A DNA stretch of 45,140 nucleotides from Emiliania huxleyi CCMP1516 (Eukaryota): contig NW_005201298.1 in NCBI RefSeq assembly GCF_000372725.1, positions 74,093-119,232 of the forward strand, given 5' to 3'. This document shows, one piece after another, positions 100 to 45,140 of this stretch (position 1 is the first letter of the stretch; each line of letters begins with the position of its first letter). A program made the translations under genes and the position numbers. The notes beneath the pieces were generated by a model that did not search any database, was not told where the DNA came from, and was given only the letters and a program-made list of their open reading frames with translations.

Positions 100-2728
100 G
101 GCCTCAACGCGCAGCTCTACTACCGCAACAAGGACCCGCGCGAGTGCGCCACCCTCGTCCGGACGTCGGGAAGCCAACCCGCTCCTCATTGCTCCTCATT
201 GGCTCCTGACTCATCACCGGCTTTAGGTACATCTCCCTCGTCCCGACGTCAGCACACACGGGCGAAGGGGTGGCCGACATCCTGATGAACCTCGTGGGCA
301 TGACGCAAAAGATGTTTGTGGACCGCATCATGTGGACGCCGATGGCGAAGTGCCGCGCCGACCTCCGCGACACGTCCGGGACACGTCCAGGACACGTCCC
401 GACAGGTGGACGCCGATGGTGCAGTGCACCGTACTCGAGGTCAAGGTGATCGAGGGGCTCGGCGCGACCGCCGACGTGACCCTCGCAAACGGGGCGCGGG
501 GCGGACACGCCCACGACACGTCCACGACATGTCCGAGACATGTCCTTAGGTGTGCCGCGGCTGCAGGCGGACACGTCCACGACACGTCCACGACACGTCC
601 GAGGCGTGTGCCCCCGTAGGTGATCCTCGCCAACGGCACTCTCAAGCGCGGGGACCGGATCGTCATGTGCGGCTTTGGCGGGCCGGTCGTCACGCGCGTG
701 CGCGACCTGCTCACGCCTCGCCCGCTGCGCGAGCTGCGCGTCAAGGCCGACTACCTCCACCACCAGGAGCCCGACCGCCCCTCCCGGCTGCTCCCCTCGG
801 CTCACCTCGGCTCCACCTTGGCTCCTCTCGGCCTCCCCTCGGCTCCACTTCGGCTCACCTCGGCTCACCTCGGCTCACCTCGGCTCACCTCGGCTCACCT
901 CGGCTCACCTCGGCTCACCTCGGCTCACCTCGGCTCACCTCGGCTCACCTCGGCTCACCTCGGCTCACCTCGGCTCACCTCGGCCACCAGGAGATCGACG
1001 GCGCCGCCGGCATCAAGATCTGCGCCAACCACCTCGAGAACGTCGTGGCGGGCTCCGCCTGCCTCGTCCCGTTCAAGGACGTGCCGTACGACCTCGAGGC
1101 GCTCAAGCAGGACGCGACGGGCTCGTCTTCTTTTCTTTCTTCCAGCCGTGTTTTCTTTTCTGTAGGTGCTCAAGGAGGACGCGATGGGCGAGCTTGTAGA
1201 CAAAGCCGGCCGAGGCACTGCGGCGGCACGGAGGTGCAGATCGGTACCAAGTCATTCCTAGGCGACCTCAACGAGCTGCGGCCAAGGCGGCGACACGTCC
1301 ACGGCACGTCCACGACATGTCCGAGACGTGTCGGATAGGCGACCTCAACAAGCTGGCTAAGGCGGCGTCCGAAGTGAACGGCGGGCTCGGCGTCTACGCG
1401 ATGGCGTCGACCCTCGGCTCGCTCGAGGCGCGGCTCGGGCTCCGTACCGCACCTCCAGAGTACCGAACCCAGTGTGGGTTCAGTCCCGTGGGCGGTGCGG
1501 TAGGCGCTCCTCGAGTTCCTCAAGACGTCAAAGGTCCCCCGCCCCNNNNNNNNNNNNNNNNNNNNNNNNNNNNNNNNNNNNNNNNNNNNNNNNNNNNNNN
1601 NNNNNNNNNNNNNNNNNNNNNNNNNNNNNNNNNNNNNNNNNNNNNTATCCCCGTCGCGGCCACATCTCCCCACATCTCCCCACATCTCCCCACATCTCCC
1701 CACATCTCCCCATCCCCCCCACACCTCTCCCCCGCACAGATCCCCGTCTCTACCACATCTCCCCACATCTCCCCACATCTCCCCATCCCCCCACACCTCT
1801 CCCCCGCACAGATCCCCGTCTCCGCGGTCAACATCGGGCCCATCCACAAGAAGGACGTCATCAAGGCGTCCATCATGCACGAGTTCAAGCCCGAGTACGC
1901 CACCATCCTCGCCTTCGACGTGCCGCTCACAAAGGAGGGCGAGCTGCAGGCCAAGGAGTCGCAGGTCAAGGTCTTCACCGCCGAGATCATCTACCACCTG
2001 TTCGACCAGTTCACAAAGTACATGGCGGACGTGCGGCTCGAGCAGCAGGCAAAGGCGGCGACCACCGCCGTCTACCCCGCCATCTGCAAGGTCTCGTCGC
2101 CCGACCTAGCACACTTCCTCGACACTTCCTCGACACTTCCTCGACACTTCCTCGACACTTCCTAGGTCTCGTCGCCCGACCACGTCTGGTGCCGCGGCGG
2201 GGGAGGGGACCCGATCTTGCTGGGGCTGGCGGTGCAGGAGGGGACCCTCAAGAAGGGCACGCCGCTCTGCGTCGAGCGGCGCGGGCAAAAGGACCCCGAG
2301 ACGGGGCTGCAGGCCTGCAAGACACCGGGCCACCAGAGAACACGAACGGCCCCCTACGCCTGCGCCAGCGCACTCCTCTTTTTTGGGCGGGTAGGCCTAC
2401 CTCGACATCGGGCGCGTCGTCTCGATGGAGCCCGAGAAGGGGAAGCAGGTGGACGTCCTCAAGGCGGGCAAGTCTGCCGCGGTCAAGATCGACGCCGTCA
2501 CGTCGATCCAGTACGGCCGGCAGTTCGACCACACCTACCCGCTGTACGCGCGCGTGACGCGCCGCTCCATCGACGCGATCAAGGAGCTCTTCAAGGAGGG
2601 CGGAAGAGCTGGTGTGAACGGCGTCTCTTCACACTCACTGCTGTGAACAGGAGTTCTTCAAGGAGGACCTCTCCAAGGACGACTGGGCGCTGCTTCTCAA
2701 GCTCAAGAAGCAGTACGGCGTCATCTGA
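100..2728 (+). CDS. eIF5B: Eukaryotic translation initiation factor 5B (IF2 homologue), 3' part; 5' end lies outside the window
   Basis: Manual exons 100-143, 227-331, 406-475, 620-766, 991-1098, 1166-1187, 1339-1427, 1504-1533, 1812-2090, 2166-2312, 2395-2583, 2651-2728 join in one frame. They give eIF5B hallmarks [86 protein letters not shown] and RRSIDAIK. Stop TGA at 2726-2728. Confidence 0.95.
797..984 (+). repeat. Intronic 10-bp tandem repeat (CTCGGCTCAC)n
   Basis: Visible array inside eIF5B intron 767-990; the same unit occurs on the - strand at ~11898-11935 in another intron. Confidence 0.95.
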
Positions 2729-11065: not shown

Positions 11066-13704
11066 TCACAGCTGCTTGACCATCGGCTGTGAGCTTCCAA
11101 ACGGGTCCCGCACCAGCGACCACTGCTCGGGCAGCAGCGCCGGCCGCGCCCCCTCGTCACCGCGCCGCCCCTTGCGACCGCGGCGAGCAAGCGGCGCGCC
11201 GGACGGCGGGGCGGCCTCGGCGTAGCCCCGCCTGCGCCAGAAGCCGACCGTGTCGTGGCCCGCGAGCACGACGACAGTGCGCACGCCGAGCTGCTCCGCG
11301 AGCCATGCCTCGGCGGCGCCCAGCAGCGCCGCGCCGATGCCGCGGCCAGCGTGGCTGCTCGCGACGGCGAGGAGCTGCACCTGTGCTCGCGGGTGCAGCT
11401 GTGAAGAGAGCGCCGTGCACAGTGGCGAGACAGCGAGGCGCCGCGCGCCTCGCAGAAGGAGGCGGCGGCGTGCGGGATGAGGGTGAGCGCCCCGACGATC
11501 GACTCCTTCCCTTCGAGGCGAGCGACAGCGGTGCGGGCGCCCTGGCCGTGCACGAGCAAGTGCAGAAAGTCGGCGCCGCGCCGCTTGCGCTGCGGGCTGA
11601 GCCCGGGGTGGGCCGGCGAGCAGGGAACGTCGGGAGGGAGGTCGACGTTGCACTCCGGCAGCCTGCGCCGGTAGAGCCGGAGCGCGTGCGCCTGCGAGAT
11701 CATCACTCGAGGTCAGGGGAGGTGAGGGGAGGTGAGGGGAGGTGAGGGGAGGTGAGGGGAGGTGAGGGGAGGTGAGGGGAGGTGAGGGGAGGTGAGGCGA
11801 GAGGAGGCGAGAGGAGGCGAGAGGAGGCGAGAGGAGGCGAGAGGAGGCGAGAGGAGGCGAGAGGAGGCGAGAGGAGGCGAGAGGAGCCGTGATGAAGCCG
11901 AGGTGAGCCGAGATGAGCCGAGGTGAGCCGAGATGCGCCTCTGCGGGCGAGAAGCTGCCAAAGGCGGCGGGCGGAGGCTGCAGCTCGAGGGTCACACCGG
12001 AGGAGGAGAGGTCGGGGCCGGCGGCGGAGGCGGCGAGGGGGACTGCCGCCGCCGTGGCGGCGGGCGGGGCGGGAGGGGCGACGGTGTACTCGACCGAGCG
12101 GCGGGTGGGGCGATGCCGCGAGCTGGCCGGAGGCGGCGGGGTGGGCTGCGGCGGCGGGGAGGAGGAAGCGGCAGCGGAAGCGGCGGCGGCGGCTGCGGCG
12201 GCGGCGGCGGAGGTGGAGGAAGTGGAGGCGGCGGCGGAGGCGGAGGCGGAGGAGGAGGAGGAGCGAGAGACGCGCGAGCTGAGCCGCGGCGCCGTGGCGG
12301 CGGCGCGAGCGCGCGTGGTCCGCTTGATCGGCGAGAGGGGCTTGGCCTGCGACGGCGGTGGCGGCTTGGGCGACGCGCCCGCGTTGCGCAGCTCAGCGAG
12401 GGCGGCGCGGCGCGAGGTCGAAAAGGAGGCGCCGAATGGGCCCTCGCCGGCGGAGGGACTGCTAGCCGCCGCCTCCTTTCGGGCGGGCGGCGGCGCGGCG
12501 CTGGCCCAAGACGGCGCGTTGCAGCCTGCCCATCCGTCGCCATCCCCGAGGCGGGCGGGTGGGGGCCCGCGTGTGGGTCGGACCTGGCTTGCCCGCCGCC
12601 CCGACCGACTCCCCCTCTGGCCGCCCGCTGCGGCGGCGCTGGCGGCAGCAGACGCGCTGGCGGCAGCAGACGCGCTGGCGGCAGCAGACGCGCTGGCGGC
12701 AGCAGACGCGCTGGCGGCAGCAGACGCGCTGGCGGCAGCAGACGCGCTGGCGGCCGCTGCCGGTGCGGCGGGGGCCGCTGCCGCGCGGCTGGCGGAAGCT
12801 GCTGCGGGCGGCTCGGTGGCCGTTTGCCGGCGAGCTGCCGCCTCGTCGCGCCGCCAAGAGGGCGGCAGGACAGAGGCGGACGAGGACGGCGGGGCGGACA
12901 AGGCGGCGGCGGTGGAGGGACGGTGGGCGAGGGCGGGCGCGTCGGCGACGGCCGGGCGGCCGGAGGTGATGGTGGCGAGGAGCCACTGCTCATCCGCCTA
13001 TGTGGGGTGTCGCGGCCGTGTCGTGGACGTGTCCCGCGCCGGTGGAGGCGAGAGACGGCCGCCTCGGCAAGGCGGGCGCGCGGCTGATTGCGGTGCACCT
13101 GCGGGAAGGCTCCGAGCGACGCTTCGGAGGAGGGCCCCGAGTCTGGCGTGGCCGGCTTGGGAGGGGGCGCGGGAGGGAGGAGAGGGGCGGAGGCCGAGGC
13201 CGAGGGAGTGGAGAAGAGAGTCGGGGAGGGAGAGAGATGGAGGGGAGGCGGGAGGGAGAGGGCATATACCTCGACGGCGCCCGCGTCGGAGATGGGGCGT
13301 CCGTACTGGACGCGCGCACCCGCCTCGCAGCAGAGGGAGCACAGGTCGGCGTGCGGCATCACCGTCGCGCCTCGCAGCGTCACGGTGAGCCCCGCAAGCG
13401 CGCGGCCGCCTCCGCTCAGCCGCGAGAGTTGCGCGCCCGGGACGTGCGGGAGCATCCCCTCCTCGAAGGGGGCGGGGTCGACGGCGACGCCGCGATTCCG
13501 CGCGCACGCGGCGACGTACTCCTCGCCGACGATCCAGTGCCCCCGCGCGAGCGCCCGCAGCAGCTTGAGCGTTCGCCGCACGGGACGGCCGCCCGCGACG
13601 GTGACGGGCTCTCCGCGGACGAGCGTGGCGCGGACGCGGTCGTGGATGTGGGCGAAGCAGCGCTGCGTTGCCTCGTCGTCGACGCCGGTGAGGGAGAAAG
13701 ACAT
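11066..13704 (-). CDS. Tandem-BRCT, Ala/Ser/Pro linker and GCN5-like GNAT acetyltransferase protein (multi-exon)
   Basis: N-terminus RRTLKLLRALARGHWIV (BRCT1) and LAGLTV...LCCEAGA...DEQWLLATI (BRCT2). C-terminus IVGALTL...FCE|VQLLAVASSHAGRGIGAALL...GFWRRRGY carries GNAT motifs A and B. Introns at roughly 13269-13099, 13060-12998, 11935-11692 and 11447-11381. Confidence 0.75.
11712..11935 (-). repeat. Compound intronic 10-bp repeats (CTCCCCTCAC, CTCCTCTCGC, CTCGGCTCAC)
   Basis: Three adjacent 10-mer arrays are directly visible. Confidence 0.95.
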
Positions 13705-14408
13705 CGGAGGGGAGAGGGAGATCGGCGAAGCGGCGCGGCTATCAAGAGCGGCAATTGAAAAAGAATCGCGCGGCCCCGTCCGATGGTCTGCTGCCCCGCG
13801 CAGCAACCGTCGGGCGACGACCCGGGGGCCAAAAACCCGGCGACGACGGCGCTCTGGATGGGGCGTGACCTCCTGCCTCCAACCTCCTTCCTTTTTGAGC
13901 AGGTGTGACGCCGCGCGAGCGACGCTCCGAGATCGCCCGAGATAGCGCGGCGCGGCCCCGAGATCGCCCGAGATAGCGCGAGATCGCCCGAGATAGCGCG
14001 GCGCGGCCCCGAGATCGCCCGAGATCGCGCGGCCCGAGATCGCGCGGCGCGGCCCGGGGCGGGGTGGATGGGTTGGGAGCGAGGGGGCGGAAGTGTTCAG
14101 TGCGGTAGATGGTAAGCTCGAGGCGCGTGAGCCGGACTTGTGAGCCGGACCACCCCCTCTTGTTATCTGCGTTGTTGAGCCAGGACTCAACATACTCGGG
14201 CTTACTCATCCCAAACTGTCACTCCCCTTTCTCCCGGCCGAGGTGGGGCGCGCGCGGGGGCGGCGGGTGTGCGCGGGTGTGAGGGATGTCTGTGAGCCCG
14301 AGAGCGATATGCCATGTCCGCCTTGCGTTTGTTTTCATAACATCGAAGGCTAAGCTCAAAAAAGAATTGTCGCTGGGGTCGCACGACACGATTCAAAAAG
14401 AAACAGAC

Positions 14409-15547: not shown

Positions 15548-17893
15548 CGGCGGCGGCCCCGCGCCTCGGCGAGACGCTGCGTCGGCGCTGGGGGCCGAAG
15601 AGGTGATCGACTTGGAGGCGGCCAACGGGGTCGGTCTCGGTGCGAGCGGCAAGCCGCTGCTGCCGGGCGAGCTCGAGGCGAGGCAGCAGCGCAGGCCGAG
15701 TTGGGTTCGGGGCCAAGAGGCTTCGACGAGCTTTCCCGGAGCCCCTCCCTTAGCTCTCCCGTAGGCGCCGCTCGGCTGGGACACGGCCTGGCTTCGCGAG
15801 TCCAAGACAACGCGTGCATGACATGTACATGTGCATGACATGTACATGTCCCTAGGCGCCGCTCGCCTCGCACGTCCCTCGAGGCATGTCCACGACACGT
15901 CCACGACACGCCCACGACACGTCCGGGACACGTCCACAGGCGCAGCTCGTGGACGCTACGCGCGTCTCGATCGACCGAAGAGACTCCCGAGGAGCAGCAC
16001 TACCGCCTCGCGGAGAGCGCGTTTTGCCGCGGCGGAGGGGTGGCGGCGCAGATCGCAAGCATCGACTACCACTTCCACCCCGCTCTCGAGGCCGCGCTGG
16101 CAGAACACAAACCCCACTCGCGGGCAGAGGACGCGGCACAGGACGGGGCACACGCGCCAGTCCGCAGACACGGGGAGGAGCGGTAGTGACGCTCACCCCC
16201 TCCCAGAGAGCCATTCTGCGAGAGGCCGCCGTGTTCGCCCCGCTTGGCGGGGAGTCTATAAGCGACGACGGCATCAGGCGCGCTGGCACGCCAAGAAGGC
16301 GGACTACGACGCGACGTACGGCCCTGGCAACCACACCATCCTCTTAATTAACTATGAAGTGACTCTTGAGTGACTCTTCATTCACTCTTAATGAATAGGC
16401 AACCACACCATCCTCTTAATTAACTATGAAGTGACTCTTGAGTGACTCTTAATTAATTCACTCTTAATGAATAGACAACCACACCATCCTCTTAATTAAC
16501 TATGAAGTGACTCTTGAGTGACTCTTCATTCACTCTTAATGAATAGGCAACCACACCATCCTCTCAATTAACTATGAAGTGACTCTTGAGTGACTCTTCA
16601 TTCGCTCTTAATGAATAGGCAACCACACCATCCTCTTAATTAACTATGAAGTGACTCTTGAGTGACTCTTCATTCACTCTTAATGAATAGGCAACCACAC
16701 CATCCTCTTAATTAACTATGAAGTGACTCTTGAGTGACTCTTCATTCACTCTTAATGAATAGGCAACCACACCATCCTCTTCGCCTTCCACGGCACGCGG
16801 CAGGCAAACGTGCGCCCGATCCTGGCGGAAGGATTCAAGCTCTCCAAGGTCGAACTATTACTTAACCAACCATTCATTTATTATTGGTTACCTATTAATC
16901 ATCTCCAAGGTCGGCTCAACGACCGACCCGGGCTTCTACGGCGCGGGAATCTACTTTTCGGAGCAGCTGCAGATGTCGATGGGATACAACAGCGGGAGCG
17001 ACTCATCCTAGAAGCAGAGCACGGATTCTTGCATCCCAGCCAGCGCTCGAGAGGACACGTATTCAACGGTATTCAGCCGATTCCACTGTGGTTCACTGTC
17101 GCCCCTCGTATTCACGCGGCGCTCTGAAGACGCCGCACGAGACCGTCCTCCCGCCCTCATGTCGGCGTACTCACCCTGTAGGAACGACGGCATGTTCCTC
17201 TGTAAGCTCCTCGTTGGCAAGCCGTTCCTCGCGCCGCTGCAGCAAGGGCGAGGGCTTCAGGCGGGCTATACGAGCCACGTGTCGGACGCGAGCGGCAGCG
17301 AGGTGATCATGTTTGACGAGGCGCGAATTAACATCTCAATCACTCGTTAATTAGTTAGTTCATATGTTAATTAGCTCACCATGTGTGACGAGGCGGCGAT
17401 GCTGCCGCTCTACTTCGTCTTTCTGCGCCCCCAGGGCGCCCACGGCCCTCTCGGCCACCATCATGGCCATCTTGGCCACGCTGCGGCGGCAGCGCACAAG
17501 GAGCCGCTCAAGGGTCTCGGCGGCGGCGGCGGCGGCGGCGGCGGCGTGTTGGGCGGCCTGGGCGGCTTGGGCGGCGCCATCGGTGGAGCGATGCACACGC
17601 TCGGCGGCGCATTTGGCCTGGGTGGCGCCTCATCGTCGTTGCCGGCCGCCGCCGTCGGGGCTGCCGCCGCTCTCGCCGGCGGCGGTGGCTGGGGCGCGGG
17701 CAACGTGCTGGGCGGCGGCAAGAGGCCGCGGGCGGACCACGACGCCGCGGTCGTGGCGCGGCTGCTGAGCGAGAGCCGTGGCGGCAAGGGCCGCCCGCGA
17801 GGGGCGGCCGGGCGCGCGGAGGGCGCGGAGGGCGCGGAGGAGGAGATGGTGCGCGAGGCGATGCGGCGGAGCTTGCTGCCGGGAGGGCGGTAG
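14976..17893 (+). CDS. FHA domain, PARP-type ADP-ribosyltransferase and C-terminal UIM-like protein (~600 aa)
   Basis: Exons 14976-15719, 15765-15811, 15940-16090, 16278-16326, 16763-16848, 16910-16995, 17182-17320, 17393-17893 are in frame. FHA: VVVGR...SISREH. ART: FAFHGT, ILAEGF, GFYGAGIYFS, MFLCKLLVG, SEVIMFD. UIM-like: EEEMVREAMRRSL. Confidence 0.85.
16327..16762 (+). repeat. Six tandem 72-bp units forming one intron of the PARP gene
   Basis: Units start at 16327, 16399, 16475, 16547, 16619 and 16691. Each begins (G/A)CAACCACACCATCCTC, the start of the next exon, and ends AATGAATAG. Confidence 0.95.
16996..17181 (+). mobile_element. Introner-like element, copy 1 (PARP gene intron)
   Basis: Shares CCTAGAAGC, CCCA.CCAGCGCTCGAGAGG, CGTA.TCACGCGG and CCGTCCTCCCGCCCTCATG blocks with introns at 19250-19505, 22768-22982 and 40663-40840. 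Confidence 0.7.
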
Positions 17894-18451: not shown

Positions 18452-21400
18452 TCAGCCCCTGTAGCGCGCAGCGGCCGCCGCCGCCACGGCGGCCGCGGCC
18501 GCGGCGGCGGCGGCGAGCGCAAGAGCGCCCGCCGACGGCGCCTGACTCCACGCCGCCACCGGGCCCTTGTCGGCGGCGCGCTTGGCCTTGTCCGAGAGGA
18601 TGGCGGCGGCGGCGCTGTCACGAGACGCCTTTGCGTTGCGTCGGCCGGCGCGCGATCACATGAGTATATGAGTAGCAGTCCCAGACTAGCAATACTCCCC
18701 AGACGCCTTTGCGTTGCCCGGCCGGCGCGCGAGCTTGAGGGCGCGCGCGTCGAGATGCGCCTCCACGTCGGCGATAGTGACGCCGGCGGCGACGCAGCGC
18801 ACGAGCGCGAAGAAGAGGAGGTCGGCGGCCTACCATTAATGAACAACTCTCATTAATTAATATTAACTGATATACCCGAGATGACCCGCGACTACCCGAG
18901 GTCGTCCTCAGTTTAAGGAAGAGGGGGTGGGCGGCCTCAGAGGCGATGTGGAGGTAATCTCGGGTGATCTCGGGTAATCTCAGGTAATCTCGGGTAATCT
19001 CGGGTAGTCTCGGGTAATCTCGGGGATTTCGGGGAGGAGGTCGGCGGCCTCAGAGGCGATGTCGTCTGGCTCCTCTGCCTCTGCCAGCTCCTGCGCCTAG
19101 ATGATCCGAGATGCCCCGAGATGCCCCGAGATGCCCCGAGATGACCCTCCGCCTCTGCCAGCTCCCGCGAACCTCTTCCACAAGCTTGGAGCGGAGGAGG
19201 GTCGAGTCGTCAAAGAGCCGCTTGGTGTACGAGCCGGCCGGCGCCGAGCCTGCGGTGTGAGTGCGCCGGCATGAGGGCGGGAGGACGGTGTCGGGCAGAG
19301 TACTTGTGGCACCGCGTGAGTACGAGGGAGGCGAGTACAATGTGCACAGCGGAGTGCGGCCGAGTACGGCGGAGTCCGTGTCGTCTCGAGCGCTACCGGG
19401 AGCACAAGAACACGGCTCCGCTCCTCCCCGCTGCCCCTGCTCACGAGATATGGGGAGATACGGGGGAGATACGGGGAGAGATTCCGCTTCTAGGGGCCGC
19501 CGCGCCGCGCCGCGACTGCAGCGTCTCCTGCAGCGCGCGTAGGCCGCTCGGGAAGCCCCAGCACGTCAGCGTGCCTGCAGGGGCAGCACGAGACACTACT
19601 GACTGGCAGTGGCCCCACCGCATAGCATGACCCCCCCCCCCCCCCAGCAATGTCAGCGTGCCTCGGTGGCAAAAGGATGGCGGCGAGCCGTACTGGCGGA
19701 CAGTGAAGCGGAGTGCGTCGCCGTCGGAGTCGACGGCCACACGGCAGAGCCGCTGCCACGCGCCTACTCCCATCGACAGTCTCTTCAACCTCTGAACCTT
19801 CACTCGCGCGGCAGAGCCGCTGCCACGCGCCTACTCCCATCGACAGTCTCTTCAGCCTCTGAACCTTCACTCGCGCGGCAGAGTCGCTGCCACGCGCCTA
19901 CTCCCATCGACAGTCTCTTCAACCTCTGAACCTTCACTCGCGCGGCAGAGTCGCTGCCACGCGCCTACTCCCATCGACAGTCTCTTCAACCTCTGAACCT
20001 TCACTCGCGCGGCAGAGTCGCTGCCACGCGCCTACTCCCATCGACAGTCTCTTCAACCTCTGAACCTTCACTCGCGCGGCAGAGTCGCTGCCACGCGCCT
20101 ACTCCCATCGACAGTCTCTTCAACCTCTGAACCTTCACTCGCGCGGCTGAGCCGCTGCCACGCGCCTACTCCCATCGACAGTCTCTTCAACCTCTGAACC
20201 TTCACTCGCGCGGCAGAGTCGCTGCCACGCGCCTACTCCCATCGACAGTCTCTTCAACCTCTGAACCTTCACTCGCGCGGCAGAGTCGCTGCCACGCGCC
20301 TACTCCCATCGACAGTCTCTTCAACCTCTGAACCTTCACTCGCGCGGCAGAGTCGCTGCCACGCGCCTACTCCCATCGACAGTCTCTTCAACCTCTGAAC
20401 CTTCACTCGCGCGGCAGAGTCGCTGCCACGCGCCTACTCCCATCGACAGTCTCTTCAACCTCTGAACCTTCACTCGCGCGGCAGAGTCGCTGCCACGCGC
20501 CTACTCCCATCGACAGTCTCTTCAACCTCTGAACCTTCACTCGCGCGGCAGAGTCGCTGCCACGCGCCTACTCCCATCGACAGTCTCTTCAACCTCTGAA
20601 CCTTCACTCGCGCGGCAGAGTCGCTGCCACGCGCCTACTCCCATCGACAGTCTCTTCAACCTCTGAACCTTCACTCGCGCGGCAGAGTCGCTGCCACGCG
20701 CCTACTCCCATCGACAGTCTCTTCAACCTCTGAACCTTCACTCGCGCGGCAGAGTCGCTGCCACGCGCCTACTCCCATCGACAGTCTCTTCAACCTCTGA
20801 ACCTTCACTCGCGCGGCAGAGTCGCTGCCACGCGCCTACTCCCATCGACAGTCTCTTCAACCTCTGAACCTTCACTCGCGCGGCAGAGTCGCTGCCACGC
20901 GCCTACTCCCATCGACAGTCTCTTCAACCTCTGAACCTTCACTCGCGCGGCAGAGTCGCTGCCACGCGCCTACTCCCATCGACAGTCTCTTCAACCTCTG
21001 AACCTTCACTCGCGCGGCAGAGTCGCTGCCACGCGCCTACTCCCATCGACAGTCTCTTCAACCTCTGAACCTTCACTCGCGCGGCAGAGTCGCTGCCACG
21101 CGCCTACTCCCATCGACAGTCTCTTCAGCCTCTGAACCTTCACTCGCGCGGCAGAGTCGCTGCCACGCGCCTACTCCCATCGACAGTCTCTTCAGCCTCT
21201 GAACCTTCACTCGCGCGGCAGAGCCGCTGCCACGCGCCTACTCCCATCGACAGTCTCTTCAGCCTCTGAACCCTCACTCGCGCGGCAGAGTCGCTGCCAC
21301 GCGCCTACTCCCATCGACAGTCTCTTCAACCTCTGAACCTTCACTCGCGCGGCAGAGCCGCTGCCACGCGCCTACTCCCATCGACAGTCTCTTCAACCTC

Positions 21401-23813
21401 TGAACCTTCACTCGCGCGGCAGAGTCGCTGCCACGCGCCTACTCCCATCGACAGTCTCTTCAACCTCTGAACCTTCACTCGCGCGGCAGAGTCGCTGCCA
21501 CGCGCCTACTCCCATCGACAGTCTCTTCAACCTCTGAACCTTCACTCGCGCGGCTGAGCCGCTGCCACGCGCCTACTCCCATCGACAGTCTCTTCAACCT
21601 CTGAACCTTCACTCGCGCGGCAGAGTCGCTGCCACGCGCCTACTCCCATCGACAGTCTCTTCAACCTCTGAACCTTCACTCGCGCGGCAGAGCCGCTGCC
21701 ACGCGCCTACTCCCATCGACAGTCTCTTCAACCTCTGAACCTTCACTCGCGCGGCAGAGCCGCTGCCACGCGCCTACTCCCATCGACAGTCTCTTCAACC
21801 TCTGAACCTTCACTCGCGCGGCAGAGTCGCTGCCACGCGCCTACTCCCATCGACAGTCTCTTCAGCCTCTGAACCTTCACTCGCGCGGCAGAGTCGCTGC
21901 CACGCGCCTACTCCCATCGACAGTCTCTTCAGCCTCTGAACCTTCACTCGCGCGGCAGAGTCGCTGCCACGCGCCTACTCCCATCGACAGTCTCTTCAAC
22001 CTCTGAACCTTCACTCGCGCGGCAGAGCCGCTGCCACGCGCGCCAGACGAGTCGCCCTTCCGCCAGAGAGAGCGGCGAGAGCGGGACCAGTAGACGCCGC
22101 GGCCGGAGCGGAGCGCGGCGCAGACGGACTCCGCCGTCGAGTAGACGAGGCCTGAAGAATGAAGAATGCGGACCCCCTCTTGGTAACGAGCTCATTCATG
22201 GCTCGGGCCCCGTCGGCGAGGAGGCGAGGCCGAGGGCGACGCCGCCCTCCTCCTCCACCACCTATGGTGGTTGCACTCTTCCGCGTCGCAACCGCCTGTG
22301 ACATCCGTACCGCCGCCCTCCTCCTCCACCGTTGAGAGCAAGCCATCCGGCCGGTCGGACCGCACCGCCGCGGCCAGCGCCTGTGGACATGGCTGGGACA
22401 TGTCGTGGACATGTCACGGACATGTCGTGGACGTATCGCGGACATGTCGTGGGCGTGTCGTGGACATGTCGTGGGCGTGTCGTGGACATGCACATGTCGT
22501 GGACATGTCGCGGACGTGTCGCGGACGTGTCGTGCACATGTCGCGGGTGTGTCGTGGACCTGGCCGAGGGCATCTCGTGAGAGTGTGTGTGGTCTCCTCG
22601 TTGGAGCACCTATCCCCACACCGAACGTCTCGCGCATGCTCCCACTCCTACCCCTCGTGCCACTGCCCCTCTCCCCTTCTCGCCATTGATACGCGCCTGT
22701 CCCGCGTCGATCAGCTCTTCTCCGCCCGCAGGCGCCTCCGCAACGTCCTCCGCCCGCCGCCAGAAGCCTACGTTGTGATGTGAAAACTGCGTTGAGACGA
22801 CGCCGACGGGAGGGCGTGAAGACGGCAACTTGTGGCAGCGTACTCAGAGCACCGCGTGAGTACGGGTGGGGACGAAAGCAGCGAACACATCCGCATCCAG
22901 CGGCATACAGCCGAGTGCGTCTCCTCTCGAGTGCTGGTTGGGATGCATGAACACGTATTCCGCTTCTAGGGCCAGAGTCCGCCACTAACCGACGGCACCG
23001 GTGCGGCCGCGGGCGTCGGCGCCGCCACCCGCTCCGCCCGCCTCGGGAGGGGGCCGAGCGATGCCGGGGCCGCGAGGCCGAGGTTGAGGGCGTGGAGCTC
23101 GGCGAGCCTAACCAGTTGGGCTCGCACTGGTCGAACTTAATTAAATTCGTCCCCAAAGTCCGAGGGCGAGGGCGTGCACGCTCGGCGCGCCGGGCCAGGG
23201 AGGGGGAGAGCGACGCTCCGGAGACCACGACCAGCAGCCGGTCCGTCGCCGCGAGGCTGGCCGACACCCGCTTCAGCAGCGCCGCGTCCGCCGCCGCGTC
23301 TGGAAGGAGGAGAAGGACGCCGGCGGCGGCGCCGACGGTGTGGGGCCGCTCGCACTCGCGGCAACCGGAGCCGGTCTTGGCGGCGAGAGACTCGAGTGCG
23401 AGAAGGAGCTGCTCAGACGTCGTCTCGGCTGCAGGAGAGAGGACGACGAGCAGGCGCTCAGCGGGCAGCGCCGCGTCCTTGGCCGCCTGGCGCACTGCCG
23501 CGCACAGCTCCGCCGGAGGCGTCGCGGGGTCCGGAGTGAGCAGCGCGTACAGCGCTCCGGCATGAAGCCACTCCCGCGCCTTGGCCGCCTCGTCCAGCCG
23601 GAAGGGGCCGACCGCGCAGCCCGCGCTGCGCAAGAGCGCGACGCGGGCAGCCGACGGCGGCGAAGCGAGCTCGGCTTCGCTCAGCCAGCAGACGAGGCAG
23701 CTGCCGAGGCCGAGGCGGCGGAGCACCTCGTCGTCGCTCTCGCCGGCCGCCTCGCCCTTGATGAGAGGCGAGAGGGACTTCGTGCGGAGGTCAACCACTG
23801 GCCAGAGCACCAT
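18452..23813 (-). CDS. hisIE: Bifunctional phosphoribosyl-AMP cyclohydrolase / phosphoribosyl-ATP pyrophosphatase with a His4-like N-terminal extension (~534 aa)
   Basis: Exons 23813-23191, 23107-22983, 22767-22697, 22380-22330, 22261-22231, 22151-22044, 19763-19662, 19574-19506, 19249-19173, 19096-19049, 18829-18707, 18628-18452 are in frame. Motifs: SDRPDGLLSTVV, LGLVYS, YWSRSRRSLWRKGDSSG, DSDGDAL, FCHRGTLTCW, GSYTKRLF, KLVEEAQEL, EAADLLFF. Confidence 0.92.
19250..19505 (-). mobile_element. Introner-like element, copy 2 (hisIE intron), with an inserted 10-mer repeat
   Basis: - strand: CCTAGAAGCGGAA...AGCGCTCGAGACGACAC...CTCGTACTCACGCGGTGC...CCGTCCTCCCGCCCTCATGCCGGCGCACTCAC..CAG. Confidence 0.7.
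19764..22043 (-). repeat. 34 tandem 67-bp units forming a 2280-nt intron of hisIE
   Basis: Unit on the - strand: GCGCGTGGCAGCG(A/G)CTCTGCC-GCGCGAGTGAAGGTTCAGAGGTTGAAGAGACTGTCGATGGGAGTAG. 2280 = 34 x 67 + 2, and the units are nearly identical. Confidence 0.95.
22768..22982 (-). mobile_element. Introner-like element, copy 3 (hisIE intron)
   Basis: - strand: CCTAGAAGCGGAATACG..TGCATCCCAACCAGCACTCGAGAGG...CGTACTCACGCGGTGCTCTGA...CCGTCTTCACGCCCTC. Confidence 0.7.
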
Positions 23814-27557: not shown

Positions 27558-29230
27558 GCGGTATTTGAGGACCACCGCCACTCTGAAGTTCGGCCGGGTG
27601 GTCTGCAGACCCCCCCCCCCGGAGCAGCAGAGGCTCCGTGGGGTTGAAAAGTCGACGCTGGGAGTCGCACTCGTCAAACCGTCTCGCAACACCACGCGGT
27701 CCGCACGTACCGCCCACATCCCCTCCACCACTGAGAAGGCGCAGATCGACCGCCGGGCCGCGTAGCCGTCGTTAAGGAGCGGTTTTTGGAGCCGTACGAA
27801 GAGGTCCCAGACGGGCGAAGATGCGGTTTTTCGACGACCACACGCGATGTGGTGTCTGCTTTTTGCTAAAAACGGGCCGCCTAGTGCAGCATCACTAGTA
27901 CAACACGCAACCACACTGAGAGCTCCACACTAGCCGGTATAGGCGAGCCCCGGCGGCCTCACCGTCGCCGCTCGCGGCGGAGCCGACGGCGGAGCCACGG
28001 GCCGGTGCGACCTTTTGGGGGGGCATGAGCTCGCCAGGACGTCACCGATGGCTCGGCGCGCCTCTTCCCGCCAGCGCGGGACGGCCTGCCTACAGGAGGG
28101 AGGGGGGGGAGACGGAACTGAGCCCTAGGTTCGTGATCCTATGGCCGGCAAGGGCTGGGAGAGGGGCGGCAAGCGACGGGCGGGTGAGCGACCTTTTGAG
28201 CGCCCATGCAACGGTGGCATAAAGTGAATGATACACCGTCGCACGTGTGCTGATTCTAGATCGCACGCAGTGGCATATCACTTGGGTAGGACCGCAGCGC
28301 GCGTGTGAGAGGTCGAGGTCGTCGTGTTCTCTGCGCTTTGTTTCTCTGTTCTACCGGAACATGGTCGTGGGGCATGGGCCCTACTGCGAGGAGGGAGAGG
28401 GAGGCGAGGGGGGGGGAGAGGGGGGGGGGAGGGGAGTGTGAGGGGTACGGGGGCGAGGGCATGGAGGGGGAGAGGAAGAGCAAGGGCGAGAGGGGGCAGG
28501 GGACGGGTCGATGGCATACTAGGGGGGGCAGGGTGGTGGGCGGCGATCGCCGCATACCGTCCTATGGACAAGGACGTCGACGTGCATGCCAGCTGCTGTT
28601 GTTCGAGTCGTTCGGTGGGTTCGGCGGAAGGGGGTCGGCGAGATCCGCTCTGGAGGGCGGCGAACGCGCTGCAGAACAAGCTGACGCGGGCCCAGTACCT
28701 CGATGAGGTGACTTGGACCACCAAGAGCTGGGTGGGGCTGCAGAAGCAGCGCATCTCAGTCGTAAGGTTCTTCACACGGCCATCGCAGAGCAGATTGTGG
28801 ATGAGCTTGCCTGGGCGGCGAGGGCGGTCGAGTGCACGGAGCTAAGTGCCTCGCCGTCCTCGCCGGCGGGAGTCGCTTCTAGGCGGCTCCCGTGGTGTAC
28901 CTGTGTTAGTGCCAGTGCGCGCCAGTCCCGTGCCTAGTGTCGTGCGGGGGAGTTTTTGTAAAATTCTCTTTTCGGTGGTGGGGATGTCGGGGTGGGGAGT
29001 GGGTCTGGGTGGGCGCCGGAGTGGGAGTAGTGTGACTGCTCCTGTGGTGCGGGCGACGGCTTCTGAGGAAGCCGTCGCCCGGCGCGCCTCGCCTATCGCG
29101 CGAATCGTGTCGTGCGACCGCCTTTTGTTGTAAACTAAGGTAGGTAGGTAGAAAGGTGAAGAAAACAACAGCCAGGCTCGGACTGGACACCAACGCGATT
29201 TTCTTGTAAACTAAAAGGAGGAACCCCTGT

Positions 29231-30391
29231 CAAGGAGTGTCTAGAATAGGTTACTATTCATGATTAGTGCTCTGAATAGTGAGGTTGCAAAACTATTCAG
29301 ACCTGAATAGAGGCACTCACAAGCTATTCAACTCATGACTAGAATGACCAGCTCTGACCCTCGATTCATGAATACTATTCAAGATGCATGCGCTCTCCCG
29401 GCGCCCTTCGCCCTTCGGCACTCCGCTCTCGATCACTACGGCTAGTTGCTGCCAGCCTGCACCACGTAGCCCTGATGGTGTACTTGCCCCGCGCCGCGCC
29501 CATGCTGTTCAACGTGCGCGACGCCTCGGTCAAGTAAGCAAAAATTGGAGGCCGCTCCTCCTCGTGCGTGACCTTGACCACCGCGCCGCCCGCGGCATCC
29601 GCGCCGCCCGCGGCATCCGCGCCGCCCACGGCTCCATCGCCAGAGGCATCAGCAGCGTCGCCCACGGTAGCAGCAGGGTCGACCTCATCAGGAAAGAGCT
29701 TGGTGCGCACGGCCGCTGGCAGCTCCGAGCGGTTCTCGTAGTAGTAGTACTCGAGGAAAGGGTTTGGGTAGCCGATCATGAACTCGCTGCCCGACGCGAC
29801 GCCCGGCTCGAGGCTGCCGCGGCCGTCCTCGCCCATCTCCTTGCACGAGAACCCCGCTCCCTTGACGCCGTCGCCGTAATCGTGCAGCGCCGAGAACTCA
29901 ACGACGGCACACTTGAACCGCTTCTCCTTGTCGGCCGCCGGGCAGCCATTCCAGAACTTGCCCGGCGCGGAGATGTACTTGCCGACAGCGGTGGCCGGCT
30001 TATTGAGCGTCGGGTAGAAGGCAATGGCCGACTGCTTGCTGGCCTTGCTCGAACGCTTAGGCGGCATGGGTGATGCGATGGCGCGATGGACGGACGGACA
30101 CGGACCAAAATAAGCTTAGAATTGACATTTCTGTCGCAGGTGCGGGTGCGAGCCCGTGGGTGCTATACTGCAGGGTGAATACTTACTTCCTGAAGTAACT
30201 TCATGATTCAGACAGACACCGACACGTGGCCTCACGCAAGTCTGAATAGTTCGAATGATCTGACTACTCTCCCTAATGAACTATTCAAGTCTTGAATCTT
30301 CTTGAATAGTGAGGTTGCAAAACTATTCAGACCTGAATGGGAGAGCTGCGAGCCTAATCAGATCATTCAGTTCTAATCAAGATACTCCTTG
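29231..30391 (-). mobile_element. Non-autonomous hAT-type DNA transposon, 1161 bp
   Basis: TIRs CAAGGAGTGTCTAGA (29231) and TCAAGATACTCCTTG (ending 30391), 13/15 match. Perfect 8-bp TSD ACCCCTGT at 29223-29230 and 30392-30399. A subterminal 36-bp repeat TGAATAGTGAGGTTGCAAAACTATTCAGACCTGAAT occurs near both ends. Confidence 0.88.
29375..30067 (-). CDS. ORF inside the hAT element, probably a truncated transposase N-terminus or cargo
   Basis: 230 aa ORF starting MPPKR with coding-like codon bias, wholly within the TIRs; no DDE core is present. Confidence 0.5.
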   Translation of the reverse strand: MPPKRSSKASKQSAIAFYPTLNKPATAVGKYISAPGKFWNGCPAADKEKRFKCAVVEFSALHDYGDGVKGAGFSCKEMGEDGRGSLEPGVASGSEFMIGYPNPFLEYYYYENRSELPAAVRTKLFPDEVDPAATVGDAADASGDGAVGGADAAGGADAAGGAVVKVTHEEERPPIFAYLTEASRTLNSMGAARGKYTIRATWCRLAATSRSDRERSAEGRRAPGERMHLE

Positions 30392-39454: not shown

Positions 39455-41128
39455 TCACACGCTACACGTGCGGTGGGAGGGGGACCCAGTGTGGTCCAGA
39501 GTCCGCCGCGCGGTGCGTGCTGCGCGATAGGTCGTCGACGGTGAAGTCGACTCTCGCGCCAAGCACTCCGACTCTCGGGCCCCCCACTCCAACTCCGCTT
39601 CCAGCCGGTCGACGAGATCTCCAAAGTGCTGTCGCGGGAAGATGAGCCCGCGGCGCTCTGCAATCAGCTCGATGAGCTGCGGGCCGGCGAGCGGCGGCGA
39701 GGCCTGCTGCGGTACGTGCTGCGGCCCCTTTCCGCGCGAGAGGTGTCTGCCCGCGGCGACGCTCGGGTCGAGCGCGGCGATGACGGCGAGGCCATACAGG
39801 CCGAGCACGACGTCGACGAGGAGGGCCTTGTCCGCCTCGTGCGTAAAGTGGCCGTTGAACACGTTGACCGACTCCTCGATCCACCGCCGGCGGGACGAGA
39901 GCTGGGAGAGGGAGGAGTCAAAGACGTACATCTGCGCCGACCCGTTGATGGCCATGAACGCCCACTGCTCGAGTCGGCACCACCCGCGCTGCAAGTACGT
40001 GTCCGCGTCGACCTTGCAGGGCGGGCGCGAGTCCTGGTGGAGCGCCTCGGGAGCGCAGGCGAGGAAGTAGTGCGAGCAGGCGGCGTAGAGGGCGATCGAG
40101 CCGATCGCGAGCCGCTTGGTCGTCGTGTTCTCCTGTGGTACTGCGGCGGGGCGGCGAGGGCGAGAGGCGGNNNNNNNNNNNNNNNNNNNNNNNNNNNNNN
40201 NNNNNNNNNNNNNNNNNNNNNNNNNNNNNNNNNNNNNNNNNNNNNNNNNNNNNNNNNNNNNNNNNNNNNNNNNNNNNNNNNNNNNNNNNNNNNNNNNNNN
40301 NNNNNNNNNNNNNNNNNNNNNNNNNNNNNNNNNNNNNNNNNNNNNNNNNNNNNNNNNNNNNNNNNNNNNNNNNNNNNNNNNNNNNNNNNNNNNNNNNNNN
40401 NNNNNNNNNNNNNNNGGGGGGAGGGGGGCGGTAGCGCACTCGAGTGGTAGTCGAGCCAGATATGGAGCGACTCGGGGTCGAGGCCTTGCCTCGCGCAAAG
40501 CGCCTCGGCCGCCTCGAGGATGGCTGGGTAGTGCTGCGCCTTGGGGTCCGGGTGGTGGCGAGAGAGCCACTGGTGCGAGACAAACATGACGGGGAGGCCG
40601 GCTGCGAAAGCCACCGCCGACTCGACGGTGTCGCAGAAGCGGAGGGCACCAGCGTCGCGCGCCTTCGTCATGCACACGCCAGCATCAGGGTGGGAATGCG
40701 GTTTCGTGCGCGCATTCAAGCATCGTGTGATACAAATACAGCCGAATGCAGCCGAATACGGCCGAATGCAGCGGAGTGTGCGCCCTCTCGAGCGCTGGTT
40801 GGGAGACAAGAAGACGTGTTCCGCTTCTAGGACCGCGCGCCTCCTCGTACGAGACAAGGCGGCCCTGCTCGCGTAGCTTCGAGAGCGGCATCACCGCGAG
40901 CGGAAACTCGAGCGTCGTGACGCCCGTCACCGCCTGGCGGATGCGTCTGTCCTTCTCGGCGCTCTCTCGCTCAACCTAAGGTAAGGCAAGGCCAGGTCAA
41001 CTTCTCCGCACACACGAGGTGGTGGGGCAAGGGCCAAGCAGTCCCTCGCGGCCCCACGTCTAGAAGACAGGAGCCCCGGCATCAAAGTGCAAGGCCCGGT
41101 GCGCGTGGGTGAGCGGTGTGTGTGTGTG

Positions 41129-41186
<58 letters not shown>

Positions 41187-41274: not shown

Positions 41275-41338
<64 letters not shown>

Positions 41339-43399: not shown

Positions 43400-45140
43400 N
43401 NNNNNNNNNNNNNNNNNNNNNNNNNNNNNNNNNNNNNNNNNNNNNNNNNNNNNNNNNNNNNNNNNNNNNNNNNNNNNNNNNNNNNNNNNNNNNNNNNNNN
43501 NNNNNNNNNNNNNNNNNNNNNNNNNNNNNNNNNNNNNNNNNNNNNNNNNNNNNNNNNNNNNNNNNNNNNNNNNNNNNNNNNNNNNNNNNNNNNNNNNNNN
43601 NNNNNNNNNNNNNNNNNNNNNNNNNNNNNNNNNNNNNNNNNNNNNNNNNNNNNNNNNNNNNNNNNNNNNNNNNNNNNNNNNNNNNNNNNNNNNNNNNNNN
43701 NNNNNNNNNNNNNNNNNNNNNNNNNNNNNNNNNNNNNNNNNNNNNNNNNNNNNNNNNNNNNNNNNNNNNNNNNNNNNNNNNNNNNNNNNNNNNNNNNNNN
43801 NNNNNNNNNNNNNNNNNNNNNNNNNNNNNNNNNNNNNNNNNNNNNNNNNNNNNNNNNNNNNNNNNNNNNNNNNNNNNNNNNNNNNNNNNNNNNNNNNNNN
43901 NNNNNNNNNNNNNNNNNNNNNNNNNNNNNNNNNNNNNNNNGGTTCCTCCCGTCGCCTCTTCTTTGTTCGAATGTTTTTCAATCCATCCTTCACGAAGCCC
44001 TCCCATGTAGCTAGCGTTCTTGGCGAATGTCTCGAAATGGCCAGCAGGCGCTGTCTGCTCGCGGTCTGTGCGGGCCGCTCGTCCTCCTCGCCCTTCTTTC
44101 GTCCTCCCGTCCCTCCCCTCCACCATGGCCTTCTCGGCACTTCTTTCTCCATCCGCCTCGCCCTGCCTTTTCGCATCGTGCCGTTCGCCCTCCATTCGGT
44201 GACCTCCATGGCTGTCCGCCCCTTTTTGGGTGGCGCTCTCGATACGGTTGCGTCAACCTCGACGTCGCTGTCGCCCTCCCCGTCCCCGCCGGCGTCCGTG
44301 CCTCGGTTCGCGTCATCGGTAGCGTCTCCGTTGTTCCCTCGTGCCCCGCCGTCGCCCTCTCTGCTCGGGCCGTTAGCGATTTCGCTCCTCCTGCGTGTCG
44401 CCCCTCCGTCCCCTCCCCTTTCTTCGTCGTCATCGTCGCTGTCGCGAAAGCCCTCCGGTCCCTCGATTCCCTCGCCTATCCCCTCCGCTAATCCTGAGCA
44501 ACAATAAGCGACTGTACCACGGAGCACAGAGCGCAGCAGACAGGACGGCGGCGACGGCGGACATGGCAGAGACGAGTGTGAAACAAAGGGCGGCGGGCGT
44601 GGAGGGCGGTAGCGACGGGGATGGAGACGGTGACGGTGGCGAGGGAGAGGAAGGGGGTCCATTAACACCAGACAGCGAGAGGGGCAGGGAGGAAAGGGGG
44701 AGAGAGGAAGCCAACGCGACGTGCGCAGAGGATGAGGATATAAACTGGGACGACGCAGCGGAGGGGATTGAAGAATTTGATGGGCCTATCGGTGTTCTCG
44801 AGGTTCGTTATACCATCCCATCCCTCCCTTGGGTTGTCTGTTTTCTTTCTTTCTTTCTAGGTTCGTTATACCAAAAAGAGGGCTCGAGGTTCTCGAGGTG
44901 GATATCCTTTGGCCCTATCGGTGTGTATGAGTGTGTGTCTTGTCTTGTGGTTCTGTGTGTGTCGCTCCTGTGTGACCGTCATCGCCCGTTCTGCGTCCAC
45001 CCATACCGCGTTGGTGTCCCATCGCGCCGATCACATCAGCGGACCGACGGTGCGTCTGGACGCGCACTTTGCACTCCGGGTCCCAGACAGAGGCATCTCT
45101 CAAAGTGTCGCCGCATGGCCTCATCGGCCAGTCGTTCACC

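What the first reader, a model, noticed from the sequence alone, without database searches (positions are those of the whole stretch)
18629..23190. The same junction-duplication rule holds in hisIE, PARP and the receptor gene on both strands
Seen in hisIE (- strand): introns 23190-23108, 22329-22262, 22230-22152, 19661-19575, 19172-19097, 19048-18830 and 18706-18629 carry ~15-30 nt copies of the flanking exon. In the last one the copy spans the junction (CGCGCGCCGGCCG..GCAACGCAAAG|GCGTCT). Also seen in PARP introns 16091, 16849 (CTCCAAG|GTCG at both ends) and 17321 (CATGT.TGACGAG|GCG), in receptor intron 41600-41492 (22-nt exact copy), and at 44803/44861 (13-nt exact). This replicates the pattern in unrelated genes, so it is not a one-gene quirk.
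Basis: seen in the sequence. Interest (0 to 1): 0.8.

Follow-up and report, generated by a model that had tools for sequence, protein, structure and literature searches.

The report
Introns flanked by copied exon edges
In this marine alga (likely the coccolithophore Emiliania huxleyi), about two thirds of the introns confirmed by transcripts begin or end with a 12-33-base copy of the neighbouring exon, which likely marks them as new introns made when a short piece of exon was duplicated around inserted filler DNA, and would explain why the alga's introns so often start with GC or GA instead of GT.

Summary
All seven named hisIE introns carry the exon copies, and RNA contigs splice them out while DNA contigs keep them. 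Of 24 introns defined by transcripts alone, 16 match their own exon edge better than any of 552 shuffled pairings; 0 of 14 introns of eIF5B relatives do. It is a majority pattern, not a rule: 6 of 9 further predicted introns lack a copy. The usual layout is exon | copy of the next exon's start (gives the donor) + unrelated filler (median 57 nt) ending in YAG | exon. The donor dinucleotide equals the next exon's first two bases in 25 of 29 introns. Positions are mostly unshared with relatives. Best reading: recent intron gain by staggered duplication plus filler capture, with longer and more variable repeats than Daphnia neointrons or published introners. No empty allele was seen, so gain is inferred. 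The scan's notes hold no earlier report of this.

The parts
23108..23190 (-). hisIE intron 1, GC-AG, starts with a 23-33-nt copy of the next exon
   Evidence: skipped in X11, X12, X15
22768..22979 (-). hisIE intron 2, GA-AG, about 10-nt copy (8 of 10) plus CCTAGAAG element (22787-22970)
   Evidence: skipped in X11, X15, retained in X12
22381..22696 (-). hisIE intron 3, GC-AG, 8-nt spanning copy, ends in 11-bp GACACGTCCAC-type array
22262..22329 (-). hisIE intron 4, GT-AG, 19-20-nt copy of the 31-nt exon that follows
22152..22230 (-). hisIE intron 5, GC-AG, decayed 27-nt copy
19764..22043 (-). hisIE intron 6: 34 tandem 67-bp units, each a 22-nt exon copy plus 45-nt filler ending TAG; removed whole from the mRNA
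   Evidence: units 98.8% alike; a 1777-nt X11 contig runs from 19740 straight to 22018; loose ends in X11, X12, X15
19575..19661 (-). hisIE intron 7, GC-AG, 17-20-nt copy
   Evidence: (X11)
19250..19505 (-). hisIE intron 8, GC-AG, 9-nt copy (8 of 9) plus CCTAGAAG element
   Evidence: (X11)
19097..19172 (-). hisIE intron 9, GT-AG, 25-27-nt copy, 10-bp repeat filler
18830..19048 (-). hisIE intron 10, GC-AG, two stacked units: 15-nt exact copy, then an internal 29-nt junction-spanning copy at 18921-18949
18629..18706 (-). hisIE intron 11, GC-AG with AAG acceptor, 32-nt copy that spans the junction
18452..23813 (-). hisIE host gene, 12 exons, 535 codons when spliced at these sites
   Evidence: open frame, one terminal stop; Pfam PF01502 and PF01503
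15689..15939 (+). PARP-like intron of three stacked units (76, 91, 84 nt), predicted from the reading frame
   Evidence: internal-copy test not significant (5 of 28)
16091..16277 (+). PARP-like intron, 12-nt copy with one gap, predicted
16327..16762 (+). PARP-like intron: six 72-bp units, each a 19-nt exact exon copy plus AT-rich filler ending TAG, predicted
16849..16909 (+). PARP-like intron, 12-nt spanning copy, AT-rich filler
   Evidence: indirect RNA support
16996..17181 (+). PARP-like intron, GA-AG, 8-nt copy plus CCTAGAAG element
   Evidence: bridged in X11 and X13
17321..17392 (+). PARP-like intron, 16-nt spanning copy, GAG acceptor
   Evidence: bridged in X11
144..2650 (+). eleven eIF5B introns (144-226, 332-405, 476-619, 767-990, 1099-1165, 1188-1338, 1428-1503, 1534-1811, 2091-2165, 2313-2394, 2584-2650); 7 of 11 above the null maximum; two GA donors
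   Evidence: spliced alignment of transcript-derived P0008
41492..41600 (-). predicted intron with 22-nt exact copy and 10-12-bp repeat filler, in a gene of unknown family
   Evidence: no RNA test
40663..40840 (-). predicted intron, fourth CCTAGAAG element with 9-nt exact copy
   Evidence: no RNA test
44803..44860 (+). predicted intron with 13-nt exact copy
   Evidence: no RNA test, host gene not identified

Best explanation
Most introns in these genes are flanked by a 12-33-nt copy of their own exon edge and are spliced out precisely; they likely arose recently, when a staggered break in an exon was repaired so that the bases between the two cuts were duplicated around 40-60 nt of imported filler. 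Shown: the layout exon | copy + filler + YAG | exon (about 20 of 29) or a copy spanning the junction (3-5 of 29); precise removal; donor dinucleotide set by the exon; fillers of several kinds, some shared between genes; repeated events and amplification at one junction. Inferred: the insertion survives when the copy starts with GC, GT or GA (the spliceosome accepts all three) and the unit reaches about 60-90 nt; the donor is then tuned by point changes towards G(T/C)GCG; unequal exchange between the two copies amplifies the unit into arrays. Not shown: the enzyme and the source of the filler. Because most fillers end in an ordinary acceptor exactly at the copy's edge, I think the filler is most often the 3' part of another intron, copied in through RNA or DNA. 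A second, smaller class (four CCTAGAAG elements with 8-10-nt copies) behaves like an ordinary introner family.
For: Copies: 16 of 24 transcript-defined introns above the maximum of 552 permuted pairings, 21 of 24 above the 95th percentile, p 4e-16; 0 of 14 and 1 of 14 in relatives' introns. Sharp edge between copy and unrelated filler. Donor dinucleotide equals the next exon's first two bases in 25 of 29 (41% expected, p 6e-7; relatives 6 of 14); donors GC 16, GT 9, GA 4. Three introns have a copy running through the junction and an exon-derived AAG/GAG acceptor, which needs a once-contiguous exon. New positions: L051 (49.9-kb contig) and L003 have no intron over eIF5B residues 58-690; L008 shares 0 of 8, L046 1 of 9 positions in range; PMC3174169 reports no detectable intron conservation between E. 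huxleyi and other eukaryotes (passages). Donor changes at +3 to +5 go towards the relatives' consensus 14 times, away 5, neither 4 (one-sided p 0.03). Fillers are not copied from the 80 nt on either side; GACACGTCCAC-type fillers of eIF5B and PARP align in register at the AG (top pairs of 21 of 378 above the null's 99th percentile). Unit length median 76 nt, 61-113, n 28.
Against: No empty site: the three DNA runs laid show no listed joint at these introns (27 joints not shown) and L001 has the same two introns, so gain is inferred from distant, unnamed relatives only. The one position shared with L046 (residue 378, GA donor in both) also carries a significant copy here (score 15), and at 1534-1811 the internal copies start with AT, which cannot be a donor: copies can be added to introns that already exist. 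Blind breaks filtered by selection should leave many copy-plus-filler pairs outside genes, yet 11 of the 14 best direct-repeat pairs sit at known or predicted splice junctions, although about 25.8 of 45.1 kb lie outside the genes I delimited. 6 of 9 further predicted introns show no significant copy. The mismatch rate at +3 to +5 (6 of 39) is not above that further in (22 of 172, p 0.61). One window, three genes with transcript support.
Confidence: 0.62

Rival explanations
1. The introns are older, and the exon copies are written into their ends afterwards by repair that uses spliced mRNA or cDNA as template for 10-30 nt and then rejoins the old intron (an aborted intron loss).
For: Copies start exactly at the splice junction; fillers look like ordinary intron bodies, and 10-bp repeats of the same kind occur in L008 introns that have no copy; the shared position 378 and the AT-starting copies at 1534-1811; few pairs outside genes; at 19048 the 5' copy (15 of 15) fits the exon better than the inner, nearer copy (13 of 15).
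Against: Junction-spanning copies would need two separate events each; stacked units bring a complete new filler and acceptor (1188-1338, 18830-19048); 8 of 9 positions are not shared even with the closest genomic relative L046.
Confidence: 0.15
2. All are decayed insertions of many small DNA-transposon (MITE-type) introner families that carry the acceptor and take the donor from the target-site duplication.
For: Same splice logic as Aureococcus, Symbiodinium and Polarella introners. Three small introner families (6, 5 and 45 copies) are listed for E. huxleyi in PMC12130899 file 8, one about 68 nt, 'co-opt 5' carry 3'', noted '10bp terminal direct repeats'. The CCTAGAAG family fits (four copies, 71-80% alike, 8-10-nt copies). 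Non-repetitive fillers fold back more than their shuffles (mean z -1.07, n 20, p 0.003) and some have 9-bp inverted ends.
Against: Copy length runs from 12 to 33 nt, whereas the duplications in those papers' passages are 3-8 nt and fixed per class; most fillers have no relative among 28 units and sit at single-copy depth in DNA runs; CCTAGAAG elements have no terminal inverted repeat (best 6-8 of 12); fold-back is not significantly above exon pieces (p 0.11).
Confidence: 0.13
3. Plain tandem duplication of an exon segment of one intron length (the AGGT model), after which the inner part was replaced by repeat expansion and mutation, leaving only the copy near the splice site.
For: Fits the spanning cases in part; unit length is narrow; tandem duplication is a shown route of intron gain (PMC3443670, passages).
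Against: Exact 16-22-nt copies abut fillers with no trace of the exon; filler families are shared between unrelated genes.
Confidence: 0.06
4. Chance, proto-splice-site consensus or an assembly artefact.
For: Draft assembly with gaps and one 98% duplicated locus; GC-rich, low-complexity exons.
Against: Permutation keeps consensus and composition and is exceeded by 16 of 24; independent DNA contigs of three studies hold the introns and RNA contigs of four studies lack them.
Confidence: 0.02

Closest known systems
Daphnia pulex neointrons from staggered double-strand-break repair (PMC4202315; passages read)
   Same: [quoted passage not shown]
   Different: There 33 such repeats of 4-12 bp among 90 polymorphic introns; here 12-33 nt, in about two thirds of all transcript-defined introns, not seen polymorphic, supplying GC/GA donors, with shared filler families and amplified units.
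Introners / introner-like elements of Aureococcus, Symbiodinium, Polarella and others (10.1101/2022.06.06.494994, passages; 10.1101/2020.10.14.339549, parts 1-2 of 4; PMC12130899, section 6 and supplement files)
   Same: Donor taken from the duplicated target, acceptor carried; GC and GA donors follow from exon sequence; three small families are already listed for E. huxleyi, one with '10bp terminal direct repeats'.
   Different: Introners are multi-copy families with a fixed short duplication (3-8 nt in the passages read), often with terminal inverted repeats. Only the CCTAGAAG class resembles that; the rest have long, variable copies and mostly unique fillers that a family-based search would miss.
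Intron gain by tandem genomic duplication (AGGT model; PMC3443670, passages)
   Same: Exon duplication provides splice sites and the mRNA is unchanged.
   Different: There the whole intron is a copy of the exon; here only 12-33 nt are, and the acceptor usually comes from the filler.
'Identically repeated intron boundary' sequences of dinoflagellates (seen only as a citation in PMC7789003) and general direct repeats near splice sites (PMC11782384, abstract only)
   Same: Repeats at both ends of introns, read as insertion scars.
   Different: The general survey reports 4-30 bp (mean 11.4) within a window around the borders across all intron kinds; here the copies are in exact register with the splice sites and absent from relatives' introns. 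The dinoflagellate paper itself was not read.
Majority GC-AG splicing of Emiliania huxleyi (PMC4028052; passages read)
   Same: 56% GC, 40% GT, 4% GA donors in curated genes; here 16, 9 and 4 of 29; frequent intron retention.
   Different: That paper ascribes GC donors to genome GC content; the passages read do not mention exon copies at intron ends.

Membership tests
Introner (long-copy introns) | Many sequence-similar copies of the intron body at unrelated loci | tested here: not met
   Only 21 of 378 unit pairs are alike at the 3' end, the top ones all GACACGTCCAC-type repeats; the unique fillers lie at about single-copy depth in DNA runs at 88-90% likeness.
Introner (long-copy introns) | Target-site duplication of fixed short length | tested here: not met
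   12-33 nt, varying also among GACACGTCCAC-type fillers (17, 22, 29 nt).
Introner (long-copy introns) | Precise splicing with a splice site taken from the duplication | tested here: met
Introner (CCTAGAAG element) | Multi-copy, sequence-similar family forming whole introns in unrelated genes | tested here: met
   Four copies in three genes, 71-80% alike; three spliced in RNA; summed depth far above flanks in X1 and X9 (not a copy number).
Introner (CCTAGAAG element) | Fixed-length target-site duplication | tested here: inconclusive
   8-10 nt with 0-2 mismatches in 4 of 4; two are significant or near it, two are not on their own.
TIR DNA transposon / MITE (CCTAGAAG element) | Terminal inverted repeats | tested here: not met
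   Best 6-8 of 12 bases.
Introner or Daphnia-type neointron | Presence/absence polymorphism or empty site in close relatives | tested here: inconclusive
   No empty site in X1, X2, X9 or L001; no sister-species genome was reachable.
Daphnia-type staggered-break neointron | Direct repeat of the adjacent exon at the opposite intron end, around a foreign insert | tested here: met
   longer than the 4-12 bp of PMC4202315.
Tandem genomic duplication intron | Whole intron is a copy of neighbouring exon | tested here: not met
   Filler of 43-175 nt unrelated to the flanks.
Target-primed reverse transcription product (features recalled, from no call) | Variable-length duplication, fixed 3' end, variable 5' end of the insert | tested here: inconclusive
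   Variable duplication yes; common 3' register only within the GACACGTCCAC type; no poly(A) tail in any unit.
Target-primed reverse transcription product (features recalled, from no call) | An active LINE-type reverse transcriptase and a matching source RNA | not testable with these tools
   No genome is held for this window.

The most novel reading that the evidence does not exclude
This lineage makes most of its introns by a route not yet described: the 3' tail of an excised intron RNA (which ends exactly in YAG) is reverse-transcribed into a staggered nick at an AG|G site of a transcribed gene, giving exon copy + intron tail + exon copy. That would explain the exact AG at the copy's edge, the variable 12-33-nt copies, the spread of 10-11-bp repeats from intron to intron, the stacking at existing junctions, the scarcity of such pairs outside genes, and the GC/GA donors.
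Probability: 0.25. Interest if true: 0.9.

Novelty: new variant of a known kind. Interest (0 to 1): 0.72.

Why it matters
Where new spliceosomal introns come from is an open question: most recognised gains are either introner families or have no visible source. If this window is typical, one bloom-forming alga holds very many introns that each keep the scar of their own origin, with a built-in clock (copy against exon, about 13% mismatch on average), so that break register, filler source, donor tuning and phase bias can be measured genome-wide. It offers a mechanistic reason for the published majority of GC donors and for the lack of intron conservation in this species, and it shows a class of gains that family-based introner searches miss. 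Practically, the copies blur junction placement in read mapping and gene models.

Tried and rejected
The hisIE protein search returned only read-throughs of unspliced DNA. Searches used a wrong frame and found nothing; they cost one metagenome scan and one protein search. GTDB gave three irrelevant weak hits. Three motif scans of viral contigs found 0 loci. Rfam: 0 matches in the window at gathering thresholds. Local templating of fillers from the flanks: no excess, direct or inverted (the two array units are inflated because the flank holds the next unit). Internal-copy test not significant for 9 of 14 introns over 100 nt, among them 476-619 and 15689-15939. A fifth intron call in L053 (GA, at the end of the alignment) was dropped as a misalignment; L002 and L004-L007 were not counted as genomic because they may be transcripts. 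Neither array was laid on reads, so array length in other samples is unknown. No tool returned a species name. Literature: ten searches listed no paper on long exon copies at E. huxleyi introns; the 2013 genome paper is not held, and its supplement, plus files 13-14 of PMC12130899 (not searched), may bear on novelty. The scan's notes gave nothing relevant.

Full report
Setting. The window is GC-rich eukaryotic draft sequence with gaps, held by marine metagenomes and metatranscriptomes. No tool named the organism. I infer Emiliania (Gephyrocapsa) huxleyi or a sister species from GC content, habitat of the runs, and a donor mix (GC 16, GT 9, GA 4 of 29) close to the published 56/40/4% (PMC4028052, passages). 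That the 2013 genome paper reports 10-11-bp repeats enriched in introns is recalled; the paper is not held.

Gene models independent of the copies. For hisIE, RNA contigs give all 11 introns: X11 and X13 skip 18629-18706, 18830-19048 and 19097-19172; X11 skips 19250-19505 and 19575-19661 (27 joints not shown); X11, X12 and X15 skip 23108-23190, 22381-22696 and the pair around a 31-nt exon; X11 and X15 skip 22768-22979, which X12 retains. A 1777-nt X11 contig passes from 19740 to 22018, so the 2.3-kb array is removed. These sites give an open 535-codon frame with PRA-CH and PRA-PH domains. For eIF5B, a transcript-derived protein (P0008) aligns with three mismatches and 11 introns when GA donors are allowed, against 13 mismatches and 3 gaps without. 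Two PARP-like introns are bridged by RNA; four more, and the 41.5-kb intron, rest on reading frame only. DNA contigs of X1, X9 and X2 carry the introns that they cover.

The copies are real. I scored gapped extension from the junction, intron start against next exon and previous exon against intron end, and permuted donors and acceptors among introns. 19 of 29 exceed the maximum of 812 pairings and 23 of 29 the 95th percentile; among the 24 defined by transcripts, 16 and 21 (552 pairings, p 4e-16). In 14 introns of three eIF5B relatives the counts are 0 and 1 (one further call in L053 dropped as misaligned). Against a universal rule: of 9 more introns predicted without RNA, 1 is strong, 2 moderate (p 0.011, 0.021), 6 not significant, and several of those have ordinary GTGCG- or GTAT- donors.

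Anatomy. Most introns read exon | copy of next exon start + filler + YAG | exon, with no match upstream beyond AG or G. Three clear cases (16849, 17321, 18706) and two weaker ones (767, 22696) span the junction; the three clear ones use exon-derived AAG or GAG acceptors. The donor dinucleotide equals the next exon's first two bases in 25 of 29 (41% expected; relatives 6 of 14), and 28 of 29 next exons begin with G. Differences at +3 to +5 lean towards the relatives' consensus GTGCG (14 towards, 5 away, 4 neither; p 0.03), though the mismatch rate there is no higher than further in (6 of 39 against 22 of 172). Units measure 61-113 nt, median 76 (n 28); fillers 43-175, median 57 (n 26). Fillers show an 11-nt period (0.40 against about 0.27 at other lags), are not copied from the flanks, and the 20 that I classed by eye as non-repetitive fold back more than shuffles (mean z -1.07, p 0.003) and than relatives' intron ends (p 0.007) but not than exon pieces (p 0.11). 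GACACGTCCAC-type fillers of eIF5B and PARP align in register at the AG.

(a) Arrays: 19764-22043 is 34 units of 22-nt exon copy + filler + TAG, 98.8% alike; 16327-16762 is six 72-bp units. (b) Stacks: 5 of 14 introns over 100 nt hold an internal AG followed by a copy of their own exon that no foreign exon matches (0 of 28 each); three are amplified units, two (1188-1338, 18830-19048) have different fillers. P0052 and P0053 read from the exon straight into the second unit of 1188-1338, so the inner acceptor is used in some transcripts, or an allele lacks the first unit. At 1534-1811 the inner copies begin with AT, so they were made at an existing acceptor, or the donor was rescued by A to G. 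(c) A 169-245-nt element starting CCTAGAAG forms four introns in three genes, 71-80% alike, with 8-10-nt copies, no terminal inverted repeat and no Rfam match.

Are the introns new? L051 (49.9-kb contig, 77% identity) and L003 have none over eIF5B residues 58-690; L008 has four at other positions (0 of 8 shared); L046 has six, sharing 1 of 9 (residue 378, GA donor in both); L053 shares none. These loci are unnamed and distant. PMC3174169 found no detectable intron conservation between E. huxleyi and other eukaryotes (passages). No empty allele was seen. Gain is therefore inferred, not shown.

Mechanism. Duplication at a staggered break with capture of filler explains all three layouts, the sharp copy/filler edge and the exon-dictated donors (0.62). 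Two facts strain a blind version: donor-side copies with a filler that ends exactly in YAG outnumber spanning ones about four to one, and 11 of the 14 best direct-repeat pairs in the window lie at splice junctions although 25.8 kb lie outside delimited genes. Both point to fillers that are intron 3' ends and to a link with transcription or splicing; reverse transcription of excised intron tails is the boldest form (0.25, counted within the best explanation). Rivals: mRNA-templated overwriting of old introns (0.15), many decayed MITE introner families (0.13; likely true for the CCTAGAAG class), plain tandem duplication (0.06), artefact (0.02).

Prior work. Closest are Daphnia neointrons with 4-12-bp exon repeats and introners with fixed 3-8-nt duplications. 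PMC12130899 lists three small E. huxleyi families (6, 5, 45 copies), one about 68 nt that takes the donor from the target and is noted '10bp terminal direct repeats': a partial antecedent. Ten searches listed nothing on long, locus-specific exon copies at most introns of this species; subscription papers and the genome paper's supplement were out of reach. What I saw of each paper: passages (PMC4028052, PMC3443670, PMC4202315, PMC7789003, PMC3174169, PMC11347168, PMC13518057, 10.1101/2022.06.06.494994, 10.1101/2021.10.25.465678, 10.1101/2024.05.26.595999), abstract and outline (PMC11782384), half the text (10.1101/2020.10.14.339549), passages, section 6 and supplement rows (PMC12130899).

Verdict. 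Real, statistically strong and spliced as predicted; a new variant of intron gain with exon duplication, unusual in length, prevalence and recurrence. Interest 0.72.

Noticed in passing
window 767-990, 2584-2650, 16996-17181, 22768-22979: Four GA-AG introns supported by transcript evidence; the one retained in an RNA contig (X12) is among them.
   Followed up: partly
window 40720-41870 and 42370-43400: The membrane-protein gene region is present twice, 98% alike, between gaps: segmental duplicate or uncollapsed allele.
   Followed up: partly
window 8117-8875: Single-exon alkaline ceramidase gene; the first atlas cluster by features is mostly from large DNA viruses, the next ones eukaryotic (the tool warns that this shows no transfer).
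   Followed up: no
window 8900-8982: 22-nt direct repeat 60 nt apart just behind the ceramidase stop, with GACGTGTCCAC-type filler and no splice sites in register: a copy-plus-filler pair outside an intron.
   Followed up: partly
window 29220-30380: A 230-codon ORF (29375-30067, minus) flanked on both sides by AT-rich stretches with repeated GAATAG/CTATTC motifs, resembling a DNA transposon.
   Followed up: no
window 7480-7800: Fragment that looks like the end of a Copia-type retrotransposon pol gene (by eye, label recalled).
   Followed up: no
window 11040-13706: Minus-strand gene with BRCT-like start and acetyltransferase-like end (labels by eye); its three predicted introns have weak or no exon copies.
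   Followed up: partly
window 32543-32998 and 33847-34040: Tandem arrays of 182 bp x 2.5 and 39 bp x 5 outside recognised genes.
   Followed up: no
L008 448-542 and 1467-1535: A relative's eIF5B introns hold the same kind of 10-bp repeats (GATCTCGG-like) but no exon copies, so the repeats are older or wider spread than the copies.
   Followed up: partly
P0012, P0038, P0039, P0040: Read-through proteins of other relatives break off at still other eIF5B positions, hinting at high intron turnover across the group.
   Followed up: no
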